DNA from: a virus
Lineage: Duplodnaviria; Heunggongvirae; Uroviricota; Caudoviricetes
Virus record (IMG/VR): IMGVR_UViG_3300031998_000001
Location: 301,064 to 365,063 of that record
DNA: 64,000 nucleotides
Reading direction: 5' to 3' (one strand)
Part shown: positions 4,460 to 11,193 of the stretch, piece after piece
How positions within the stretch are numbered: the first letter of the stretch is position 1
Layout of the letters: every line of letters begins with the position of its first letter
Program-made: the position numbers and the translations under genes
Notes under the pieces: generated by a model
Seen by the model: only the letters and a program-made list of their open reading frames with translations
Told to the model about the DNA's origin: nothing
Database searches by the model: none

Positions 4460-4690
4460 ATGAAAGCGAGAAAAAAGGAAATATCACTTCCGCTGTGCTA
4501 CCTGAACATCAGCGAAGCGGAGCAGAAGAAGGCGCAGAAATTCATCAGGGAGCGGATGAAATCCGAGGGAATTTCGCTCCAAGACTTCTCGTTTTCGTTC
4601 GACGACACTTCGGGAATAGGCGTGGGAATATCCATTACATTCACGAAAACAGGTGAAACACAGGACATTACGGACTACGGAAGGTGGTAG
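4460..4690 (+). CDS. Small hypothetical protein
   Basis: 76-aa ORF downstream of TATAAATA at 4435. Confidence 0.6.
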   Translation: MKARKKEISLPLCYLNISEAEQKKAQKFIRERMKSEGISLQDFSFSFDDTSGIGVGISITFTKTGETQDITDYGRW

Positions 4691-4711
4691 TGAAAAAAAA
4701 TGAAAATTTTT

Positions 4712-4740
4712 CTGAACTTTATTGGGAAACCCAATATATT
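4712..4740 (+). promoter_or_regulatory. Phage promoter (CTGAAC-N15-AATATATT) at the head of the tRNA/CRISPR island
   Basis: Same motif and spacing as the copies at 11194, 20995, 23374, 25694, 49570 and 51739. Confidence 0.6.
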
Positions 4741-4920
4741 AGTAGTGAAGAAAGATTGGTCGGAACGACAAGCCAAGCAAAGCACAAGAGGTGAAATCGG
4801 GAAGCCAGTCCGAAATCGACAGAAGGTCTTTGAAATGTTGACACAGCCCAAAAATACAGGAAACCGCTTCGGAGCGCAAAGTGCTTCAACGGGTGCAACG
4901 GAGAGGCTTCCTTTAGACAA

Positions 4921-5025
4921 GTACGGGTGGCAGAGTGGCTGATTGCGCCGCTCTTTGCTCGCCGAAAGGCAAGCGGGGGCGGTATGGGCGCAAGCCCATC
5001 GGAGGTTCAAATCCTTCTCCGTGCT
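4921..5025 (+). ncRNA. tRNA-like RNA (type II body) with the anticodon arm replaced by a long GAAA-capped hairpin
   Basis: Acceptor GTACGGG/TCCGTGC, D arm GCAGAGTGGCTGATTGC, variable arm ATGGGC-GCAA-GCCCAT, T arm GGAGG-TTCAAAT-CCTTC; no 7-nt anticodon loop. Confidence 0.75.
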
Positions 5026-5093
5026 CACTTTTTCAATTTTTCATTTTTTTCATTTTTTCATAGATTGGTTTTATTTTGTGAAGGGCGTATCAA

Positions 5094-5337
5094 ACGGTTC
5101 AATAAAATTTAATAGATTTTATAAACAACCAATAAACCCAACAACGCCTATTGCATTATGGTTGCCTTAAACCATAAGCGTATAAATAATAAGGCGAACG
5201 AACAATAGGCAGCCGTACTGCCGAATTTAAGCCTGTGGACTGCCCGACTATGGATGACCGTTCAGCAATGAACCTAAAAAGTAGTGGCAGGATGAAGCAG
5301 GAAGGAGAAACTGATTTATTAGGTTTTTCCATACGGT
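5094..5337 (+). mobile_element. Non-autonomous IS607/TnpB-type element carrying omegaRNA-like copy 1 (5205-5337)
   Basis: ACGGT at both ends. It splits the inverted repeat AAGGGCGTATC (5081) / GATACGCCCTT (5341). The right part is shared with three other copies. Confidence 0.55.
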
Positions 5338-5358
5338 AGCGATACGCCCTTTAAAGGA

Positions 5359-5440
5359 GGGAGAGTCGCGTAGTGGCAATCGCACCTGACTGTAAATCAG
5401 GCGGGGCAACCCTTCGGAGGTTCGAGTCCTCCCTCTCCCA
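5359..5440 (+). tRNA. tRNA-Tyr(GTA)
   Basis: Cloverleaf with anticodon loop CTGTAAA and a long variable arm. Confidence 0.93.
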
Positions 5441-5575
5441 CGATTTGATTTTGTTTTGTGTGTAGAGGTGCTGTCGGACGACGACATTGCTCGCACAGCA
5501 CCTTTTTGGTTTTTAGGATTATATTTTTCATTTTATATTATTTTTTAATCTTCACACCTGTCGTTCCGACAGGTG

Positions 5576-5665
5576 GTCATCTTCTTCCAACGGCAGGAAA
5601 CCACCCCCGATGCCGAGCAGTCGGATAAAGGGGAGGAAATGCGGGTTCGATTCCCGCAGGTGGCA
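5576..5665 (+). ncRNA. tRNA-Glu-like RNA with an expanded anticodon arm
   Basis: Acceptor GTCATCT/AGGTGGC, D arm TTCC-AACGGCA-GGAA, T arm identical to tRNA-Glu at 9761; ~22-nt structured insert in place of the anticodon loop. Confidence 0.7.
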
Positions 5666-5695
5666 CAAACTTTTTAGATGTCAAGTAGGAGTATA

Positions 5696-5985
5696 ACGGG
5701 CTATGGTGAATTGCACTGAATCAAGAAAGCATAAAAAATCCAACAACAATGTCAAATAACAGGGTGTCTGCCTCTTAAAAGTTTCTTGAGCCGAAGGACA
5801 CCGTATGCGATGAAACCGTACGCCCAATGTACTCTGAAACTCGTCAAGTCAAACGCAAACGGGCTGGCAGGGCGGTGAGATGCACTGAATCAAGAAAAGA
5901 ATAATGGTACATACAGCAAGGGTGTCTGCCTCTTTAAAAGTTTTCTTGAGCCGAAGGACACCGAAGGCATCGAACCGCAAGCCTT
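5696..5985 (+). repeat. Tandem duplication of a ~130-nt pseudoknotted RNA motif (cores 5705-5803 and 5874-5963)
   Basis: Both copies read GGTGA..TGCACTGAATCAAGAAA-(variable)-AGGGTGTCTGCCTCT..AAAAG-TTTCTTGAGCCGAAGGACACCG. Confidence 0.8.
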
Positions 5986-6162
5986 ATCCGTAACACCAAG
6001 CACCCCCCTCACACCAGATTTCCGAAGTTACAAATTCGCTGTCTGGACGCGGTGGTGCGAAAAGTCAAGCGCAAAGTACAAGCGTGTACCAGTGGAACTC
6101 TGGCGTTCCGCAGAAATGCGGGGAATAAGCAAAGGCGGTACGATAACCCGCCCAACCCACCA

Positions 6163-6239
6163 CGCACCGTAGCATAATACTGGCAGTGCAAGGACGCTAA
6201 ACCCGTCCTGAAGTCCTCGTTCGAGTCGGGGCGGTGCGG
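6163..6239 (+). tRNA. Atypical tRNA (6-bp anticodon stem, loop CTAAACC, nominal AAA anticodon)
   Basis: Acceptor CGCACCG/CGGTGCG and T arm CCTCG-TTCGAGT-CGGGG; identity uncertain. Confidence 0.6.
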
Positions 6240-6245
6240 CAATAT

Positions 6246-6321
6246 TGCGGGGTAGAGCAGTTGGTAGTTCGTCAGGCTCATAACCTGAAGGTCGGCGGTT
6301 CGAGTCCGCCCCCCGCTACCA
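6246..6321 (+). tRNA. tRNA-Met(CAT), initiator-like
   Basis: Loop CTCATAA, 1:72 mismatch, encoded CCA. Confidence 0.9.
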
Positions 6322-6585
6322 TCTTATAACATTTTGGTAGAAAACCACCCAGACACGAAGAGTTAAATACCCGTGGAAGTCGGGCGCGTGTCGCCAGCAA
6401 CGGCACGCGGAGCGGGTGGTTATTAAAGAGCGCAACCGTTTTTAATTTCATAAAATTTCCGCCACCCTACGGGTTATCGTGGCGGTTTTTACACAAACGC
6501 ACATTGCCGACAACAGGTTTCGGACAAAATTTCCGAAGCGGAAGGCAATGTCGGAAACTGGATATAAGCAAATTACACATATCGT

Positions 6586-7146
6586 ATTGTTGTGGCATAC
6601 CGTATTACGGGTGCTGACAACTTTGCAGCGTGGAGGTGCAAGGCACTGGAAATTGTTGTGGCATACCGTATTACGGGTGCTGACAACTTCGGAGACAGCC
6701 ATTCGCAGATACCGTAATTGTTGTGGCATACCGTATTACGGGTGCTGACAACATATTATACAATTTCAATATATTGTGAATTATTGTTGTGGCATACCGT
6801 ATTACGGGTGCTGACAACACTCCCTGCTCACCACATACGAACATTACGATTGTTGTGGCATACCGTATTACGGGTGCTGACAACCATCAATGAATTGCTG
6901 AAAGTCTATTGTTTATTGTTGTGGCATACCGTATTACGGGTGCTGACAACTGCAAGAGCGACAAGTGGAATGATGAAATTGTTGTGGCATACCGCAGGGC
7001 GGATGCCGACAACTACCATAGGCGAGCAAATCTGGAAGTTATGGATTGTTGTGGCATACCGTATTACGGGTGCTGACAACATATACCTTTGCCGCTCGTT
7101 CAACAGTCAAATTGTTGTGGCATACCGTATTACGAGTACTGACAAC
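6586..7146 (+). CRISPR. CRISPR array 1: 9 repeats (36 bp ATTGTTGTGGCATACCGTATTACGGGTGCTGACAAC) and 8 spacers of 27-31 bp
   Basis: Repeats start at 6586, 6652, 6717, 6783, 6849, 6915, 6978 (variant), 7045 and 7111; the ends match the Cas-lambda repeat style ATTGTTGT...ACAAC. Confidence 0.98.
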
Positions 7147-7433
7147 CGAGGTGAAACGATATATCCTCGCGGGGCATCTGGGTCGAGCCGACTTGTTCGG
7201 CTTAACGAGAACGGCAGACAGCGTTCCAGCCCCGAAATCTCCCGATAGGGGGAAGCGCGTTGTGCGCAAACCATAAGACAGGTCTGCTCCCCAATCTGGA
7301 AAGGGGCTTTAAACGGAGACCAGCATCAGACGGACGGTAGGGCATCTGGTGAAACTTACAGCACGCCCCCAATTCGCAGGGGGAACTTTGCCATCGGCTC
7401 GCTGTGGTCGCGGTGCTCCGATTATCTACAAGT

Positions 7434-7469
7434 ATTGTTGTGGCATACCGTATCACGGGTGCTGACAAC
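7434..7469 (+). CRISPR. Orphan CRISPR repeat
   Basis: One mismatch to the consensus (TATCACGG), 287 bp after array 1. Confidence 0.9.
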
Positions 7470-7620
7470 TTACTTACGACCAAGGTCGATGTTGCCTTTC
7501 TTAAACCCGATTGCTTCGGGGAGTTGCCGTGAATAATGCAGTGGCTATGTTTCCGCAAAACGCACGGCGAGCCAAGAAATCAGTGGGATGGCAACACTCG
7601 CCTTAAATTATGAAAGCATA

Positions 7621-7694
7621 CTTCCCGTAGCCCAACTGGATAGAGCGTCTGCCCCCGGAGCAGAAGGCTGATGGTTCGAGTCCATTCGGGAAGA
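7621..7694 (+). tRNA. tRNA-Arg(CCG)
   Basis: Cloverleaf with loop CCCCGGA (C33 is atypical). Confidence 0.85.
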
Positions 7695-7736
7695 CACAGG
7701 CACGAAAGAACAATAACATAATATAACTTTTTGAAT

Positions 7737-7949
7737 ATGAACTGGAAGAAATGGACAGCAATCGGCATCACCGTAGCGGTGGTCGCAACAGGCATAATCC
7801 TTCACCTCGTACAGCCGACAATAAGTTTCGCTTGGACTGAACTTATGTGCGCCTGCGCATTCATAGCGGGTGGCGTATCGGGCTATCTCATCAAGGGCAA
7901 GATGCCAAATGACGGGAACAAGTACCAGTCGGTAGAGGGAAAGGAATAG
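7737..7949 (+). CDS. Small two-TM membrane protein inside the tRNA cluster
   Basis: Two hydrophobic segments and a basic N-terminus. Confidence 0.65.
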   Translation: MNWKKWTAIGITVAVVATGIILHLVQPTISFAWTELMCACAFIAGGVSGYLIKGKMPNDGNKYQSVEGKE

Positions 7950-8010
7950 GACAAAAAAAAAAGGACACCACCTCTGCGCATCGGGCGCGGAGGTCGGGTG
8001 TGCATATAAC

Positions 8011-8084
8011 GGTGTCTGTGGCGCAACTGGTAGCGCAGTGGATTGTGGTTCCAAAGGTTGCGAGTTCGAGCCTCGCCAGACACC
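8011..8084 (+). tRNA. tRNA-His(GTG)
   Basis: G-1/C73 pair, loop TTGTGGT. Confidence 0.93.
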
Positions 8085-8095
8085 CATTATCACAC

Positions 8096-8224
8096 GGAAG
8101 CATTGGATGGAAGTGCAAGTACCTACTGGGAACTTCCTGAAAGCGCAAGCAAAGTCGAGGTCTAACGGTACTTATGACCGAGGTAATGGCGGGGCGTTGG
8201 TTCGAGTCCAACACAATGTTTCCA
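8096..8224 (+). ncRNA. tRNA-like structured RNA (10-bp terminal stem plus T arm)
   Basis: GGAAGCATTG/CAATGTTTCC and GTTGG-TTCGAGT-CCAAC. Confidence 0.5.
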
Positions 8225-8231
8225 TTTACAC

Positions 8232-8318
8232 GGAGAGTTGCAGGAGTGGTAACTGGTCAGATTGCTAATCTGAAGCCCGCCTCTGGCGGCAGGGGTCCGA
8301 ATCCCTTACTCTCCGCCA
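8232..8318 (+). tRNA. tRNA-Ser(GCT)
   Basis: Loop TTGCTAA, long variable arm, GCCA end. Confidence 0.9.
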
Positions 8319-8485
8319 AGCAACATATTGTCGGGTAGTCGCGAATATCTTGGCGGTATGGTCGGAAAGAAGTGAATGCGATGCGATTGCGCAAGACCAT
8401 TGCGTTTAGAGTTCAAATCTCCTCTATGGTCTAACAAGGTCATATAGTTTAGTCTGGTTAAAACATTCTGACGCTTTTTTAAATC

Positions 8486-8557
8486 GCGGGAGTAGTTCAG
8501 TGGTAGAACATCGGCTTCCCAAGCCGAGGGTCGCGGGTTCGAGTCCCGTTTCCCGCT
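8486..8557 (+). tRNA. tRNA-Gly(CCC)
   Basis: Loop TTCCCAA, canonical cloverleaf. Confidence 0.93.
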
Positions 8558-8633
8558 CAACACATAGGCTGTGGACAAGGTGGGCGAAAGTATTTTTTCC
8601 ATAGTTTTACACCAACGCCCGCCTTTTCCTAAA

Positions 8634-8711
8634 CGCATTGGAGAGATAGAGGACTTGCCTTCTAAACAAGCAGTACGGGGGAACTTGCATCCGACCTCCG
8701 TTTCAATGCGG
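8634..8711 (+). pseudogene. Degenerate tRNA-Arg(TCT)-like element
   Basis: CGCATTG/CAATGCG acceptor and CTTG-CCTTCTAAA-CAAG arm; D and T arms are abnormal. Confidence 0.4.
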
Positions 8712-8790
8712 TAGAACTCCGCTCCCGTGACAGCGACGAATGATGCAATAGCGGTTCACGGGATACCTCAAGAAACTTCATTTTTCAAAA

Positions 8791-8863
8791 GCCACAATAG
8801 TTCAACTGGTAGAACGGCGGTATCGTAAACCGCAGGTTGCTGGTTCAATTCCTGCTTGTGGCT
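8791..8863 (+). tRNA. tRNA-Thr(CGT)
   Basis: Loop ATCGTAA. Confidence 0.9.
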
Positions 8864-9059
8864 CAACAATTTCGGGGGCTTGCAACGCTGCCACTGCGGG
8901 TGGAAGCCAGCGACAAGAACTTGTGTGAAGCCGAAACGCAGTCCTTCGGGAGAGGGGCGAAGGGGCAAGCGAGATGTGTCCCACTTTTTTAAAGTAACAG
9001 GCTTTAATAAATATTTATCATTCCCGAAAGGCTGTGCGGAACAGCCTCTCGGCTTTTAC

Positions 9060-9132
9060 GGGGATTTAGTTCAGTTGGTAGAACATCTGGTTCGCAATCA
9101 GAAGGTCGCGGGTTCGACTCCCGCAATCTCCA
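9060..9132 (+). tRNA. tRNA-Ala(CGC)
   Basis: Loop TTCGCAA and G3:U70 pair. Confidence 0.92.
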
Positions 9133-9138
9133 CACGGA

Positions 9139-9210
9139 TGGGCGATAGTGTAATTGGTAACACAACGGTCTCTGAAGCCGTTATAGCAGGTTCGAGTCCT
9201 GCTCGCCCAA
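9139..9210 (+). tRNA. tRNA-Gln(CTG)
   Basis: Loop CTCTGAA and U1-A72 pair. Confidence 0.92.
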
Positions 9211-9367
9211 CGACAAAAATCAATCATCTGTAGATTACATACTGTTTTTAGTTGTAATTGAAGCGACCGCCGTGAGGCGGACGCAGGCTGGCGGTTGGAT
9301 AATGACGCGTAAAGGCGGTTGTGAAAGCCAACGGAAAGCACTACATCGTTAAGTGCCAGCCACCATA

Positions 9368-9503
9368 ATAGGCAGCCGTACTGCCGAATACAAGCCTGTG
9401 GAGAACCCAACCGTGGATGACCGTTGCGTAAGCAACCTAAAAAGCGGTGGTTCTGCGAAGCAGGAAGGAAATGCCTAAATTTCATTAGGTTTCTCCATAC
9501 GGT
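9368..9503 (+). ncRNA. TnpB omegaRNA-like cassette, copy 2
   Basis: ATAGGCAGCCGTACTGCC...GAAGCAGGAA...CCATACGGT, shared by four copies. Confidence 0.65.
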
Positions 9504-9760
9504 ATGACAGCCTCTAACCGTAGCACATTACAAAACAAACGCTGTCATTACATAAATGGTCAGAGGCATAACGCCGAGCGCAGGTATGGTATGCGTTCAA
9601 GTCGCAGTCACGGAAGCCCCAGATAAAAATGGGAGGTGCTTGCGGTCAAGCGAGTGGTCAGCGGGCTTGCACTCGGTGTGGCAACAATGGTCGTTTCCGA
9701 ACTTACGACCATTCAAAAAGATAAGGTAGTGGCTTGGGAGGGAAAAGAAACTCTCGATAC

Positions 9761-9832
9761 GCTCCTTTCGTCTAACGGTCAGGACGCGAGATTCTCAATC
9801 TCGTAATGCGGGTTCGATTCCCGCAGGGAGTA
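9761..9832 (+). tRNA. tRNA-Glu(CTC)
   Basis: Loop TTCTCAA. Confidence 0.92.
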
Positions 9833-10039
9833 CAATGGCGAACACACGACAATCCAAACTGAAGGGGAACTGGAAAACCCTCGCTCCGAGATAACATCAG
9901 CGCAGAGAGGTTGGTGAGGCAACCGTAAAAGTAATCCTGTGTGCAAGCAAGAAGGAAGTTCGGGTTCAAGTCCCGATGAGGATTATTGTTGAAGAGGGAT
10001 ATGATTCAACCATAGCACTTATGGTGCTGTGCAAGGGTT

Positions 10040-10175
10040 ATAGGCAGCCGTACTGCCGAATACAAGCCTGTGGAGAACCCAACCGTGGATGACCGTTGCC
10101 TATGCAACCTAAAAAGCGGTGGTTCTGCGAAGCAGGAAGGAAATGCCTAAATTTCATTAGGTTTTTCCATACGGT
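10040..10175 (+). ncRNA. TnpB omegaRNA-like cassette, copy 3
   Basis: Nearly identical to copy 2 but with a different 3' flank. Confidence 0.65.
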
Positions 10176-10213
10176 ATCACTACTCGCGGTGGATGTGGAA
10201 ATAACCGCGATTT

Positions 10214-10287
10214 GGTCAGTTGGTGAAGTTGGTTATCATACCTGCCTGTCACGCAGGTGTTCACGAGTTCGAGTCTCGTACTGACCG
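10214..10287 (+). tRNA. tRNA-Asp(GTC)
   Basis: Loop CTGTCAC. Confidence 0.92.
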
Positions 10288-10446
10288 CAGACAAAGACAA
10301 AGAACGAGAGGACTTGTATGACTTGCAAATGTCACGGACTCAAACAAGAAAAGTTTATAGGCTATTAGAGGATGACTGTTTCTTTAATTTGTTTTCTTGT
10401 ACTGAAGGTCATCACTGCCGTGCCACCAAGCCGTGCAAGTCCAAAT

Positions 10447-10520
10447 GGTGCGTTAGTTCAGTTGGTTAGAATGCCAGCCTGTCACGCTGGAGGTCGCGGG
10501 TTCGAGTCCCGCACGCACCG
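10447..10520 (+). tRNA. tRNA-Asp(GTC), second divergent copy
   Basis: Loop CTGTCAC. Confidence 0.93.
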
Positions 10521-10555
10521 CAATAATCTGGATATAGGCAAATTACACATATCAT

Positions 10556-10780
10556 ATTGTTGTGGCATACCGTATCACGGGTGCTGACAATCAGGGGAAA
10601 GAGGTTCTGAACATTGATGAGATTGTTGTGGCATACCGTATTACGGGTGCTGACAACGGAAGTACGCGGAGTTCGCTCAATATGATGATTGTTGTGGCAT
10701 ACCGTATTACGGGTGCTGACAACGAACTACCAAAAGGCGGCAAAATGATAATTGTTGTGGCATACCGCAGGACGGATGCC
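10556..10780 (+). CRISPR. CRISPR array 2: 4 repeats (last one a truncated variant) and 3 spacers (30, 30, 27 bp)
   Basis: Repeats at 10556, 10622, 10688 and 10751; flanked by tRNA-Asp and tRNA-Arg. Confidence 0.97.
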
Positions 10781-10788
10781 ATCATACT

Positions 10789-10860
10789 GGCTTGATAGTT
10801 CAATGGATAGAACGGCGGTTTCCTAAACCGTAGATTCGGGTTCGATTCCCGGTCGGGCTA
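10789..10860 (+). tRNA. tRNA-Arg(CCT)
   Basis: Loop TTCCTAA. Confidence 0.9.
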
Positions 10861-10952
10861 CAAAAAATCCGCTTTCAAACTTGCGCACGCCTTTATGTCG
10901 GCTAAACGGGTGTTATGCGCAAGTCCCTGAAACGGGGCTTGCAAACGACTAC

Positions 10953-11023
10953 ACAGGTGTAGTTTAATGGTAGAATGGTGGTCTCCAAAACCATAGGTGA
11001 GGGTTCGATTCCTTCCACCTGTG
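10953..11023 (+). tRNA. tRNA-Trp(CCA)
   Basis: Loop CTCCAAA. Confidence 0.92.
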
Positions 11024-11193
11024 CAACAAAGCCCGCCGAAATGTGCGCACGAGTAGGCGGGAGCGTACCTATCCGAAGCAAACCGCAGTCCCCCAACAAA
11101 TATACACACTGCGGCTGTAAAGTTCGGACAGCGAATCGTATGTGTCGCTGGAAGTTCGGTGGCTCTTCGGTTTTATAAGCCACCACTTTTTTT

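What the first reader, a model, noticed from the sequence alone, without database searches (positions are those of the whole stretch)
4921..5025. tRNA body with the anticodon loop replaced by a ~16-bp GAAA-capped hairpin
Seen: acceptor, D, long variable and T arms are intact. The anticodon arm is instead GCCGCTCTTTGCTCGCC-GAAA-GGCAAGCGGGGGCGGT, a near-continuous helix with no anticodon. It is the first tRNA-like unit after the island promoter. Inference: the clean pairing argues for a functional non-decoding tRNA mimic rather than decay. Possible roles are a decoy for anticodon nucleases or tRNA-sensing defences, an aminoacyl donor (SerRS/LeuRS do not need the anticodon), or a precursor with a removable insert.
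Basis: partly seen in the sequence, partly recalled or inferred. Interest (0 to 1): 0.75.

Follow-up and report, generated by a model that had tools for sequence, protein, structure and literature searches.

The report
Serine-tRNA look-alike with sealed anticodon arm
A giant cattle-gut phage carries a gene shaped like a serine transfer RNA whose codon-reading arm is 18 bases too long and is predicted to fold into a closed hairpin, so it likely cannot translate and probably acts as a stable tRNA mimic, like the long-known but unexplained tRNA-like RNAs of phages T5 and T4.

Summary
Window 4921-5025, in a 388-kb T4-like phage, is a complete class II tRNA body. Its anticodon arm is 35 nt instead of 17 and folds as a 14-15-pair GAAA-capped hairpin (z about -3). 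The body is closest to tRNA-Ser(UGA) (top 3 of 120 phage tRNAs), but has U73 and U2.G71. All 6 of 8 laid runs that cover it keep the long arm. Of 12 substitutions only 1-2 break a pair, against 5 expected (P 0.008-0.047). That favours selection on shape, but no change is two-sided. No single excision restores a serine anticodon, and the insert lacks the motif of the intron-like inserts in related phages. A decoy for anticodon nucleases fits poorly, because that arm is what was lost. The design is not new: T5 RNA1 and RNA2 ('tRNA-like stable RNA with unknown functions') share it, as do 18 of 87 long tRNA bodies from viral contigs. Best reading: an unspliced, non-decoding tRNA mimic acting through its body and 3' end. 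Its partner is unknown and its expression barely shown.

The parts
4708..4742 (+). Repeated phage promoter-like motif (TTTTCTGAA-N18-TATATTAG); role inferred
   Evidence: 31 copies of the strict pattern in G000, including 11190 in front of the next ORF; the sigma-70 scan does not list it
4743..4919 (+). Leader with a boxA-like word at 4825-4835 (consensus recalled, not from a call); no substitution in run X16 up to 4896
4921..5025 (+). tRNA-Ser(UGA)-like non-decoding RNA, 105 nt, discriminator U73, no encoded CCA
4921..4927 (+). Acceptor stem 5' strand (pairs 5018-5024): G1-C72, U2.G71, A3-U70, C4-G69
4928..4947 (+). U8-G26 including the D arm; identical (20 of 20) to tRNA-Ser(UGA) of related phage G004
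4948..4982 (+). Extended anticodon arm, 35 nt, 14 pairs, GAAA tetraloop at 4964-4967
4983..5000 (+). U44, 6-bp variable stem with 4-nt loop, C48: same layout as the G004 Ser(UGA) variable arm
5001..5017 (+). T arm with TTCAAAT loop
5576..5665 (+). Second look-alike in the island: body resembling the window's Glu tRNA (same T arm), about 19 nt extra in the anticodon arm; same phenomenon, unrelated insert
   Evidence: z -1.95

Best explanation
This is a gene with a serine-tRNA-type body and an anticodon arm 18 bases too long, which is predicted to fold as a closed hairpin, is likely processed by the host like a tRNA but not spliced, likely cannot decode, and probably acts as a stable tRNA mimic that occupies host proteins recognising the tRNA body or 3' end. 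Shown: the cloverleaf pairing, the Ser(UGA)-like D and variable arms, the 35-nt arm in all six covering runs, and mostly pair-preserving variation. Inferred: descent from the clade's Ser(UGA) gene; transcription from the motif at 4708; RNase P and 3' trimming with host CCA addition (recalled knowledge: these enzymes read the acceptor and T arms); exclusion from decoding because the arm is about 9 pairs too long. Least supported step: the partner. My pick is a sink for acceptor-end tRNA toxins of the AbiE/MenT nucleotidyltransferase kind, or for SerRS-like body readers, not anticodon nucleases. Odds: selected, unspliced mimic about 0.65; that it works by titrating a body or 3'-end binder about 0.3 overall.
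For: The three best body matches of 120 canonical phage tRNAs are all Ser(UGA) (scores 29, 28, 21; next 18, Tyr). G001 and G004 keep a normal Ser(UGA); this genome has only Ser(GCU). Six of 8 laid runs cover the unit and all keep the arm; no joint lies inside it. Of 12 distinct substitutions 1 breaks a pair in the tRNA register (expected 5.0, P 0.008) or 2 in the minimum-energy register (P 0.047). In the arm, 4960 turns C.A into U-A and 4976 turns U.G into U-A. Same design in T5 RNA1 and RNA2, annotated as stable; T4 RNAC was detected by Northern blot as a late RNA (PMC9697503, passages). MenT3 acts on tRNA 3' ends and prefers tRNA-Ser in vitro (PMC7450476, abstract), so a serine-body-specific 3'-end attacker exists in bacteria.
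Against: No two-sided compensatory change was seen, and the variants come from only 4 related runs. The better P value uses a register I chose after seeing the data; in the other register the change at 4956 (3 of 6 runs) breaks a pair. In run X16 the unit is more variable than its flanks (9 of 106 versus 3 of 266, Fisher P 0.001), which also fits relaxed constraint. No distant homologue of the arm was found. Expression evidence is one 151-nt contig of depth 4 in one RNA library, with no silent control laid. U73 and U2.G71 depart from bacterial serine identity. No host, partner or defence system was identified.
Confidence: 0.5

Rival explanations
1. Decaying tRNA-Ser gene: an insertion killed decoding and the gene now drifts; the hairpin is a by-product of the insertion and of G+C richness.
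For: The island looks eroded: 15 ARAGORN tRNAs against 39 and 45 Rfam tRNA matches in G001 and G004, with several odd units. The unit is more variable than its leader. Serine identity bases are lost. No distant homologue was found. The central 25 nt are not much more stable than shuffles (119 of 2000).
Against: Pair-breaking changes are 1-2 of 12 versus 5 expected. All four other arms remain fully paired although the acceptor sequence has diverged from Ser(UGA). No indel was listed inside the unit in any run (two gaps in the X18 contig were not displayed), while indels occur on both sides (4911, 4916, 5028).
Confidence: 0.2
2. Processing signal: the tRNA shape marks an RNase P cut that frees the 175-nt leader and opens the long island transcript; the arm content is irrelevant.
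For: First unit after the promoter-like motif; the leader is well conserved in X16; acceptor and T arms are intact. An earlier AI note (e1-5847411) proposed this for another phage; I did not test it.
Against: The downstream tRNAs carry their own processing signals. The idea does not explain retention of the Ser-type D and variable arms or the pair-improving changes in the long arm.
Confidence: 0.12
3. Precursor with an 18-nt intron, cut by an unknown nuclease and ligated by the phage's RtcB to give a decoding tRNA.
For: The genome encodes a 414-aa RtcB. Three 18-nt excisions give a 5-pair stem with a Y32-U33/R37 loop (anticodons UUG, UCG, GCG), and the last two would be unchanged in all six runs. 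Related phages carry removable-looking inserts; Lak phages have 'enigmatic' tRNA introns (10.1101/356790, passages).
Against: None of the three is a serine anticodon, and UUG becomes UGG in 3 of 6 runs. The same scan restores a fully Watson-Crick stem in 5 of 9 insert-bearing tRNAs of G001/G004, but only 4 WC + 1 G.U here, and nothing for the second unit. The 46-50-nt insert motif is absent from the whole genome. No tRNA splicing endonuclease domain. G001 and G004 have such inserts without RtcB. The one RNA contig is unspliced.
Confidence: 0.1
4. Serine-charged donor for non-ribosomal chemistry (cell-wall, lipid or peptide modification).
For: The variable arm has the serine layout; SerRS ignores the anticodon.
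Against: G73 and G2-C71 are lost. No class II synthetase core in the genome. I did not search for aminoacyl transferases, so no acceptor enzyme is known.
Confidence: 0.08

Closest known systems
Phage T5 RNA1 and RNA2 (NC_005859 misc_RNA T5s03, T5s06: 'tRNA-like stable RNA with unknown functions')
   Same: Inside a phage tRNA cluster; acceptor, D and T arms kept; anticodon arm replaced by a long stem-loop; a further hairpin in the variable position (folds, annotation).
   Different: No sequence match. T5 arms are longer (RNAs of 144 and 125 nt versus 105). This one has a Ser(UGA) body and a nearly continuous GAAA-capped helix. Stability and abundance are stated for T5 but not shown here.
Phage T4 RNAC and RNAD (species 1 and 2 RNAs)
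   Same: Small stable RNAs of unknown role from the tRNA region (PMC3014915 and PMC9697503, passages); RNAC folds with a T arm, a hairpin and a long arm.
   Different: The predicted RNAC fold shows no standard D arm, and RNAD shows no ordinary cloverleaf; no sequence match.
Bacterial and phage tRNA-Ser(UGA), class II (Rfam RF00005)
   Same: D arm identical to the G004 gene, G26.U44, 6-bp variable stem, G1-C72.
   Different: No 7-nt anticodon loop, 18 extra bases, U73, U2.G71.
Intron-like inserts in tRNA genes of Lak and related huge phages (10.1101/356790)
   Same: Extra sequence in the anticodon arm of a huge gut phage's tRNA gene.
   Different: Inserts in G001/G004 are 46-50 nt, share a motif, and often excise in silico to a perfect tRNA. 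This one is 18 nt, lacks the motif and does not. Table S6 of the Lak preprint (intron sequences) could not be opened, so no direct comparison with Lak introns was made.
Allo-tRNAs (review PMC7609411, passages)
   Same: Serine-type body without a serine anticodon; some irregular forms are translation-inactive.
   Different: Allo-tRNAs have 8/4 or 9/3 acceptor branches and an anticodon loop; this has 7/5 (8/5 if -1:73 pairs) and no loop.

Membership tests
Canonical tRNA-Ser | Cloverleaf with acceptor, D and T arms | tested here: met
Canonical tRNA-Ser | Long variable arm in serine layout | tested here: met
   same layout as G004 Ser(UGA)
Canonical tRNA-Ser | 5-bp anticodon stem with 7-nt loop and serine anticodon | tested here: not met
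   35-nt arm; no excision gives a Ser anticodon in a canonical loop
Canonical tRNA-Ser | G73 and G2-C71 | tested here: not met
   U73, U2.G71; identity set
T5/T4-type tRNA-like stable RNAs (a descriptive class, not a sequence family) | Lies in a phage tRNA cluster | tested here: met
T5/T4-type tRNA-like stable RNAs (a descriptive class, not a sequence family) | tRNA body with the anticodon arm replaced by a longer stem-loop | tested here: met
T5/T4-type tRNA-like stable RNAs (a descriptive class, not a sequence family) | Accumulates as a discrete stable RNA in infection | tested here: inconclusive
   one unspliced 151-nt contig, depth 4, in RNA run X18; contigs show no ends or strand; X19 and X20 do not cover it
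T5/T4-type tRNA-like stable RNAs (a descriptive class, not a sequence family) | Sequence homology to T5 RNA1/2 or T4 RNAC/D | tested here: not met
   no T5 or T4 record among 4 short hits
Intron-containing phage tRNA (Lak type) | Excision restores a canonical tRNA matching the body | tested here: not met
   positive control 5 of 9
Intron-containing phage tRNA (Lak type) | Shared insert motif of related phages | tested here: not met
   0 matches in G000, 6 in the G001/G004 loci
Intron-containing phage tRNA (Lak type) | Spliced RNA observed | tested here: inconclusive
   no joint in 3 RNA runs, only one of which covers the unit
Allo-tRNA | 12-bp acceptor branch as 8/4 or 9/3 | tested here: not met
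   7/5; definition
C4-like tRNA-shaped antisense RNA | Arm complementary to a phage transcript | tested here: not met
   longest match 12 nt, equal to the mode of 60 shuffles; host targets not testable

The most novel reading that the evidence does not exclude
An 18-nt mini-intron is cut out between positions 33 and 34 and the halves are joined by the phage's RtcB, giving a serine-charged tRNA with an arginine anticodon (GCG): a splice-activated miscoding tRNA. The loop so formed keeps C32, U33, the anticodon and a purine at 37 in all six runs.
Probability: 0.04. Interest if true: 0.85.

Novelty: new member of a known kind. Interest (0 to 1): 0.33.

Why it matters
tRNA-like stable RNAs of T4 and T5 are still described as of unknown function. 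The viral-contig scan shows many unrelated examples (69 clusters of long tRNA bodies under one D-loop pattern), and standard tRNA callers missed this one. It is a short, nearly minimal case with a clear serine origin and natural variants, so it is a convenient construct to ask what such RNAs do. If they titrate tRNA-directed defence toxins at the 3' end, that would be a counter-defence by RNA distinct from the known rescue by resistant decoding tRNAs. As it stands it adds a member, not a mechanism.

Tried and rejected
Homologue searches that found no relative of the arm: exact 27-nt pattern in viral contigs, 0; Ser-type D loop with long spacer, 23 loci, none alike; anticodon-stem pattern in metagenome contigs, 119 stretches from 28 of 64 parts, none a tRNA-like homologue; promoter pattern, 0; variable-arm/T-arm pattern, 3 loci, all ordinary tRNAs; DNA search of 31 of 34 requested records, only D-arm or T-arm pieces; annotated phages, short hits only. 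These tools may leave out records very near the window's genome. Synteny: none of 89 UvsW loci has a tRNA island beside the gene (3 scattered ARAGORN calls), so 'a normal tRNA at the same place in relatives' could not be tested. The two closest UvsW relatives (73-75%) came without accessions. Recoding or suppressor role: rejected; read-through after TAG or TGA is about as short as after TAA (medians 14, 19.5, 11 codons). Overlapping ORFs 4700-4942(+) and 4675-5028(-): rejected; 1-base insertions at 4911 or 4916 are listed in 5 of 6 covering runs. Antisense target in the phage genome: none above chance. No second copy in the genome. Phage enzymes not found: CCA-adding head domain, class II synthetase core (51), splicing endonuclease (52), Ro/TROVE (78). 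The Rnl1 search rang in no control and is uninformative (77). The genome is 93% complete by CheckV. A C-CGA-AA word at the hairpin tip could be a remnant Ser(CGA) anticodon, which would suit this phage's C34-rich tRNA set and TCG use (25% of Ser codons); I left it unclaimed because C-GAAA-G loops are common and U33 is missing. RNA runs X19 and X20 have no cover on the unit, which proves nothing. Literature: nine answered searches showed no paper on this RNA or on a function for the class in the held library, judged mostly from listings; one search was on tRNA toxins.

Full report
Setting. The window is part of a single 387,654-base virus record, 93% complete by CheckV. It has UvsW helicase and clamp-loader genes of T4-like type and the standard genetic code. 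The best-holding sequencing runs are bovine gut metagenomes. The host was not established; a Bacteroidales host is my inference from a Prevotella phage Lak match at 5200-5304 and a UvsW relative on a Rikenellaceae-binned contig. All 15 tRNAs that ARAGORN finds in the genome lie in one island at 5359-11024.

Observation. Bases 4921-5025 form a full cloverleaf: acceptor stem 7 of 7 pairs, D arm, a 6-pair variable stem and a T arm. Rfam scores the stretch as tRNA at 34.1 bits in E-value mode. Between G26 and U44 lie 35 bases instead of 17. They fold into 14 pairs with three G.U, one bulge, one C.A mismatch and a GAAA loop (z -3.06). A motif repeated 31 times in the genome sits at 4708-4742, and this is the first tRNA-like unit behind it in my parse.

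Origin. Leaving out the anticodon arm, I scored the body against 120 of 128 ARAGORN tRNAs from the window, G001, G002, G004, G005, T4 and T5 (8 dropped because the anticodon could not be placed). The top three are all Ser(UGA). Positions 8-26 equal the G004 gene at 20 of 20, and the variable arm has the same layout. In an earlier scan selected on this D-loop motif, a rough anticodon read-out gave TGA or GCT in 101 of 120 matches. G001 and G004 keep a normal Ser(UGA); this genome has only Ser(GCU). Descent from Ser(UGA) is therefore likely but inferred, as the islands are not syntenic. The acceptor end has moved away from serine identity: U73 and U2.G71, where bacteria mostly keep G2-C71 and G73 counts in vivo (PMC9976931, passages).

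Variation. I laid 8 of the 20 listed runs; 6 cover the unit. X5 and X6 are identical in it; X11, X12, X16 and X18 give 12 distinct substitutions. Two substitutions and two gaps of the X18 contig were not displayed. With the lower arm in the tRNA register, 1 of 12 breaks a pair (expected 5.0 for random places with the same transition share, P 0.008). In the minimum-energy register 2 do (P 0.047). The first register was chosen after seeing the data, and the folding ensemble favours the second at the disputed base (pair 4956-4975, probability 0.74). Two of the three arm changes improve pairing in both registers. No pair changes on both sides. X16 differs at 9 of 106 bases in the unit but 3 of 266 outside (P 0.001): sequence is free while shape mostly holds. 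I read this as moderate evidence of selection on structure.

Is it an intron? Related huge phages carry 46-50-nt inserts in tRNA genes. A single-deletion scan restores a fully Watson-Crick stem and canonical loop in 5 of 9 of them, four at position 28/29. The same scan here gives three 18-nt solutions with anticodons UUG, UCG or GCG, none serine; UUG is UGG in 3 of 6 runs. The relatives' insert motif has no match in this genome. The phage encodes RtcB but no splicing endonuclease domain, and G001 and G004 have inserts without RtcB (0 of 5 records). The only RNA-library contig over the unit (X18, 4877-5023, depth 4) holds the arm unspliced; it could be precursor or DNA.

How unusual? Not very. 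Earlier AI notes pointed to T5; I checked. T5 RNA1 and RNA2 are annotated 'tRNA-like stable RNA with unknown functions' and fold as tRNA bodies with a long arm in the anticodon position. T4 RNAC and RNAD are of unknown role (PMC3014915, PMC9697503, passages). One degenerate pattern for class II bodies with a long middle returned 118 stretches from 45 of 64 parts of the viral collection: 99 distinct sequences, 87 whole bodies, 69 clusters. Of the 87, 18 have a first arm of at least 8 pairs and 24 bases plus a second hairpin, by thresholds I set. Others have normal anticodon arms with very long variable arms, so not all 87 are non-decoding. None is a sequence relative of this arm. The island itself holds a second case at 5576-5665.

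Mechanism. The parts kept are those read by processing enzymes and body-reading proteins; the part replaced is the one read by the ribosome and by anticodon nucleases. From established knowledge (recalled): RNase P and the CCA enzyme read the acceptor and T arms, and tRNA scaffolds with inserts in the anticodon arm are processed and stable. I expect a mature RNA of about 108 nt that cannot decode. Known rescue from PARIS is by a resistant decoding tRNA-Lys with changes in the anticodon stem-loop (PMC11455837, passages), which this RNA cannot supply. Toxins that act at the 3' end fit better: MenT3 extends the CCA end of uncharged tRNA and prefers tRNA-Ser (PMC7450476, abstract), and the abortive-infection toxin AbiEii is of the same superfamily (10.64898/2026.01.19.700257, abstract). 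A serine-shaped, possibly poorly charged RNA would be a natural sink for such enzymes. This last step is a hypothesis with no direct evidence here.

Verdict. A real feature, probably selected, and a new member of a known but unexplained class. Confidence 0.5 in the stated mechanism; rivals are decay 0.2, processing signal 0.12, intron 0.1 and aminoacyl donor 0.08. Interest 0.33. Other papers seen: PMC7609411 (passages); all remaining titles only as search listings.

Noticed in passing
L352:3480-3598, 5847-5966, 5982-6100; L353:330-447, 452-568; L354 (reverse strand) 1479-1597, 4988-5110, 6375-6502, 7682-7798: Related huge phages G001 and G004 have tRNA genes with 46-50-nt inserts, most sharing a small hairpin followed by a CAGCAA-like word. 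Four excise in silico at position 28/29 of the anticodon stem to a perfect arm (Asp, Pro, Lys, Ile). Neither genome has RtcB; the G001 pair 5847-6100 has no insert match among annotated phages. Possibly more interesting than the finding itself.
   Followed up: partly
L357:3983-4177 and 7877-8094 (G005:C68): tRNA genes with a second tRNA-like unit nested in the anticodon loop, as described for Lak tRNA-Thr.
   Followed up: no
window 5576-5665: Glu-like tRNA body with about 19 extra bases forming a hairpin in the anticodon arm; no clean excision.
   Followed up: partly
window about 9850-9985; L352:11835-11978; L354 reverse 1017-1157; L357:590-723: A 134-144-nt tRNA-like RNA with long central arms seems to recur across the clade (by eye; not aligned).
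   Followed up: no
window 6163-6240, 8096-8223, 8634-8710: Further odd units: a 'Phe(AAA)' call with a 6-pair anticodon stem; a 128-nt unit with a 10-pair closing stem and a T arm; a degenerate unit with a TCT anticodon-like loop.
   Followed up: no
window 6585-7150, 7435-7470, 10555-10790: CRISPR-like arrays with a 36-nt repeat and 27-31-nt spacers interleaved with the tRNAs (14 repeats). The 11 spacers tested match nothing of note in G000 or the fetched loci; cas genes were not searched.
   Followed up: partly
window about 5204-5345, 9367-9505, 10040-10175: Three similar non-coding units; the first scores 32.3 bits to RAGATH-18, below the 44.9 cut-off, and matches Lak phages at 85% over 105 nt.
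   Followed up: no
G000:C1:179717-180961 (L476:9718-10962): Phage-encoded RtcB RNA ligase, 414 aa, directly behind a copy of the promoter-like motif at 179650.
   Followed up: partly
window 5359-11024: The tRNA set is skewed to C34 anticodons (9 of 15) in a 49% G+C genome, and lacks Cys, Leu, Lys, Ile, Val, Pro and Asn calls.
   Followed up: no
L428/L132, L143, L389, L457, L460, L432: Unrelated viral contigs with serine-like bodies and extended anticodon arms of the same design.
   Followed up: partly
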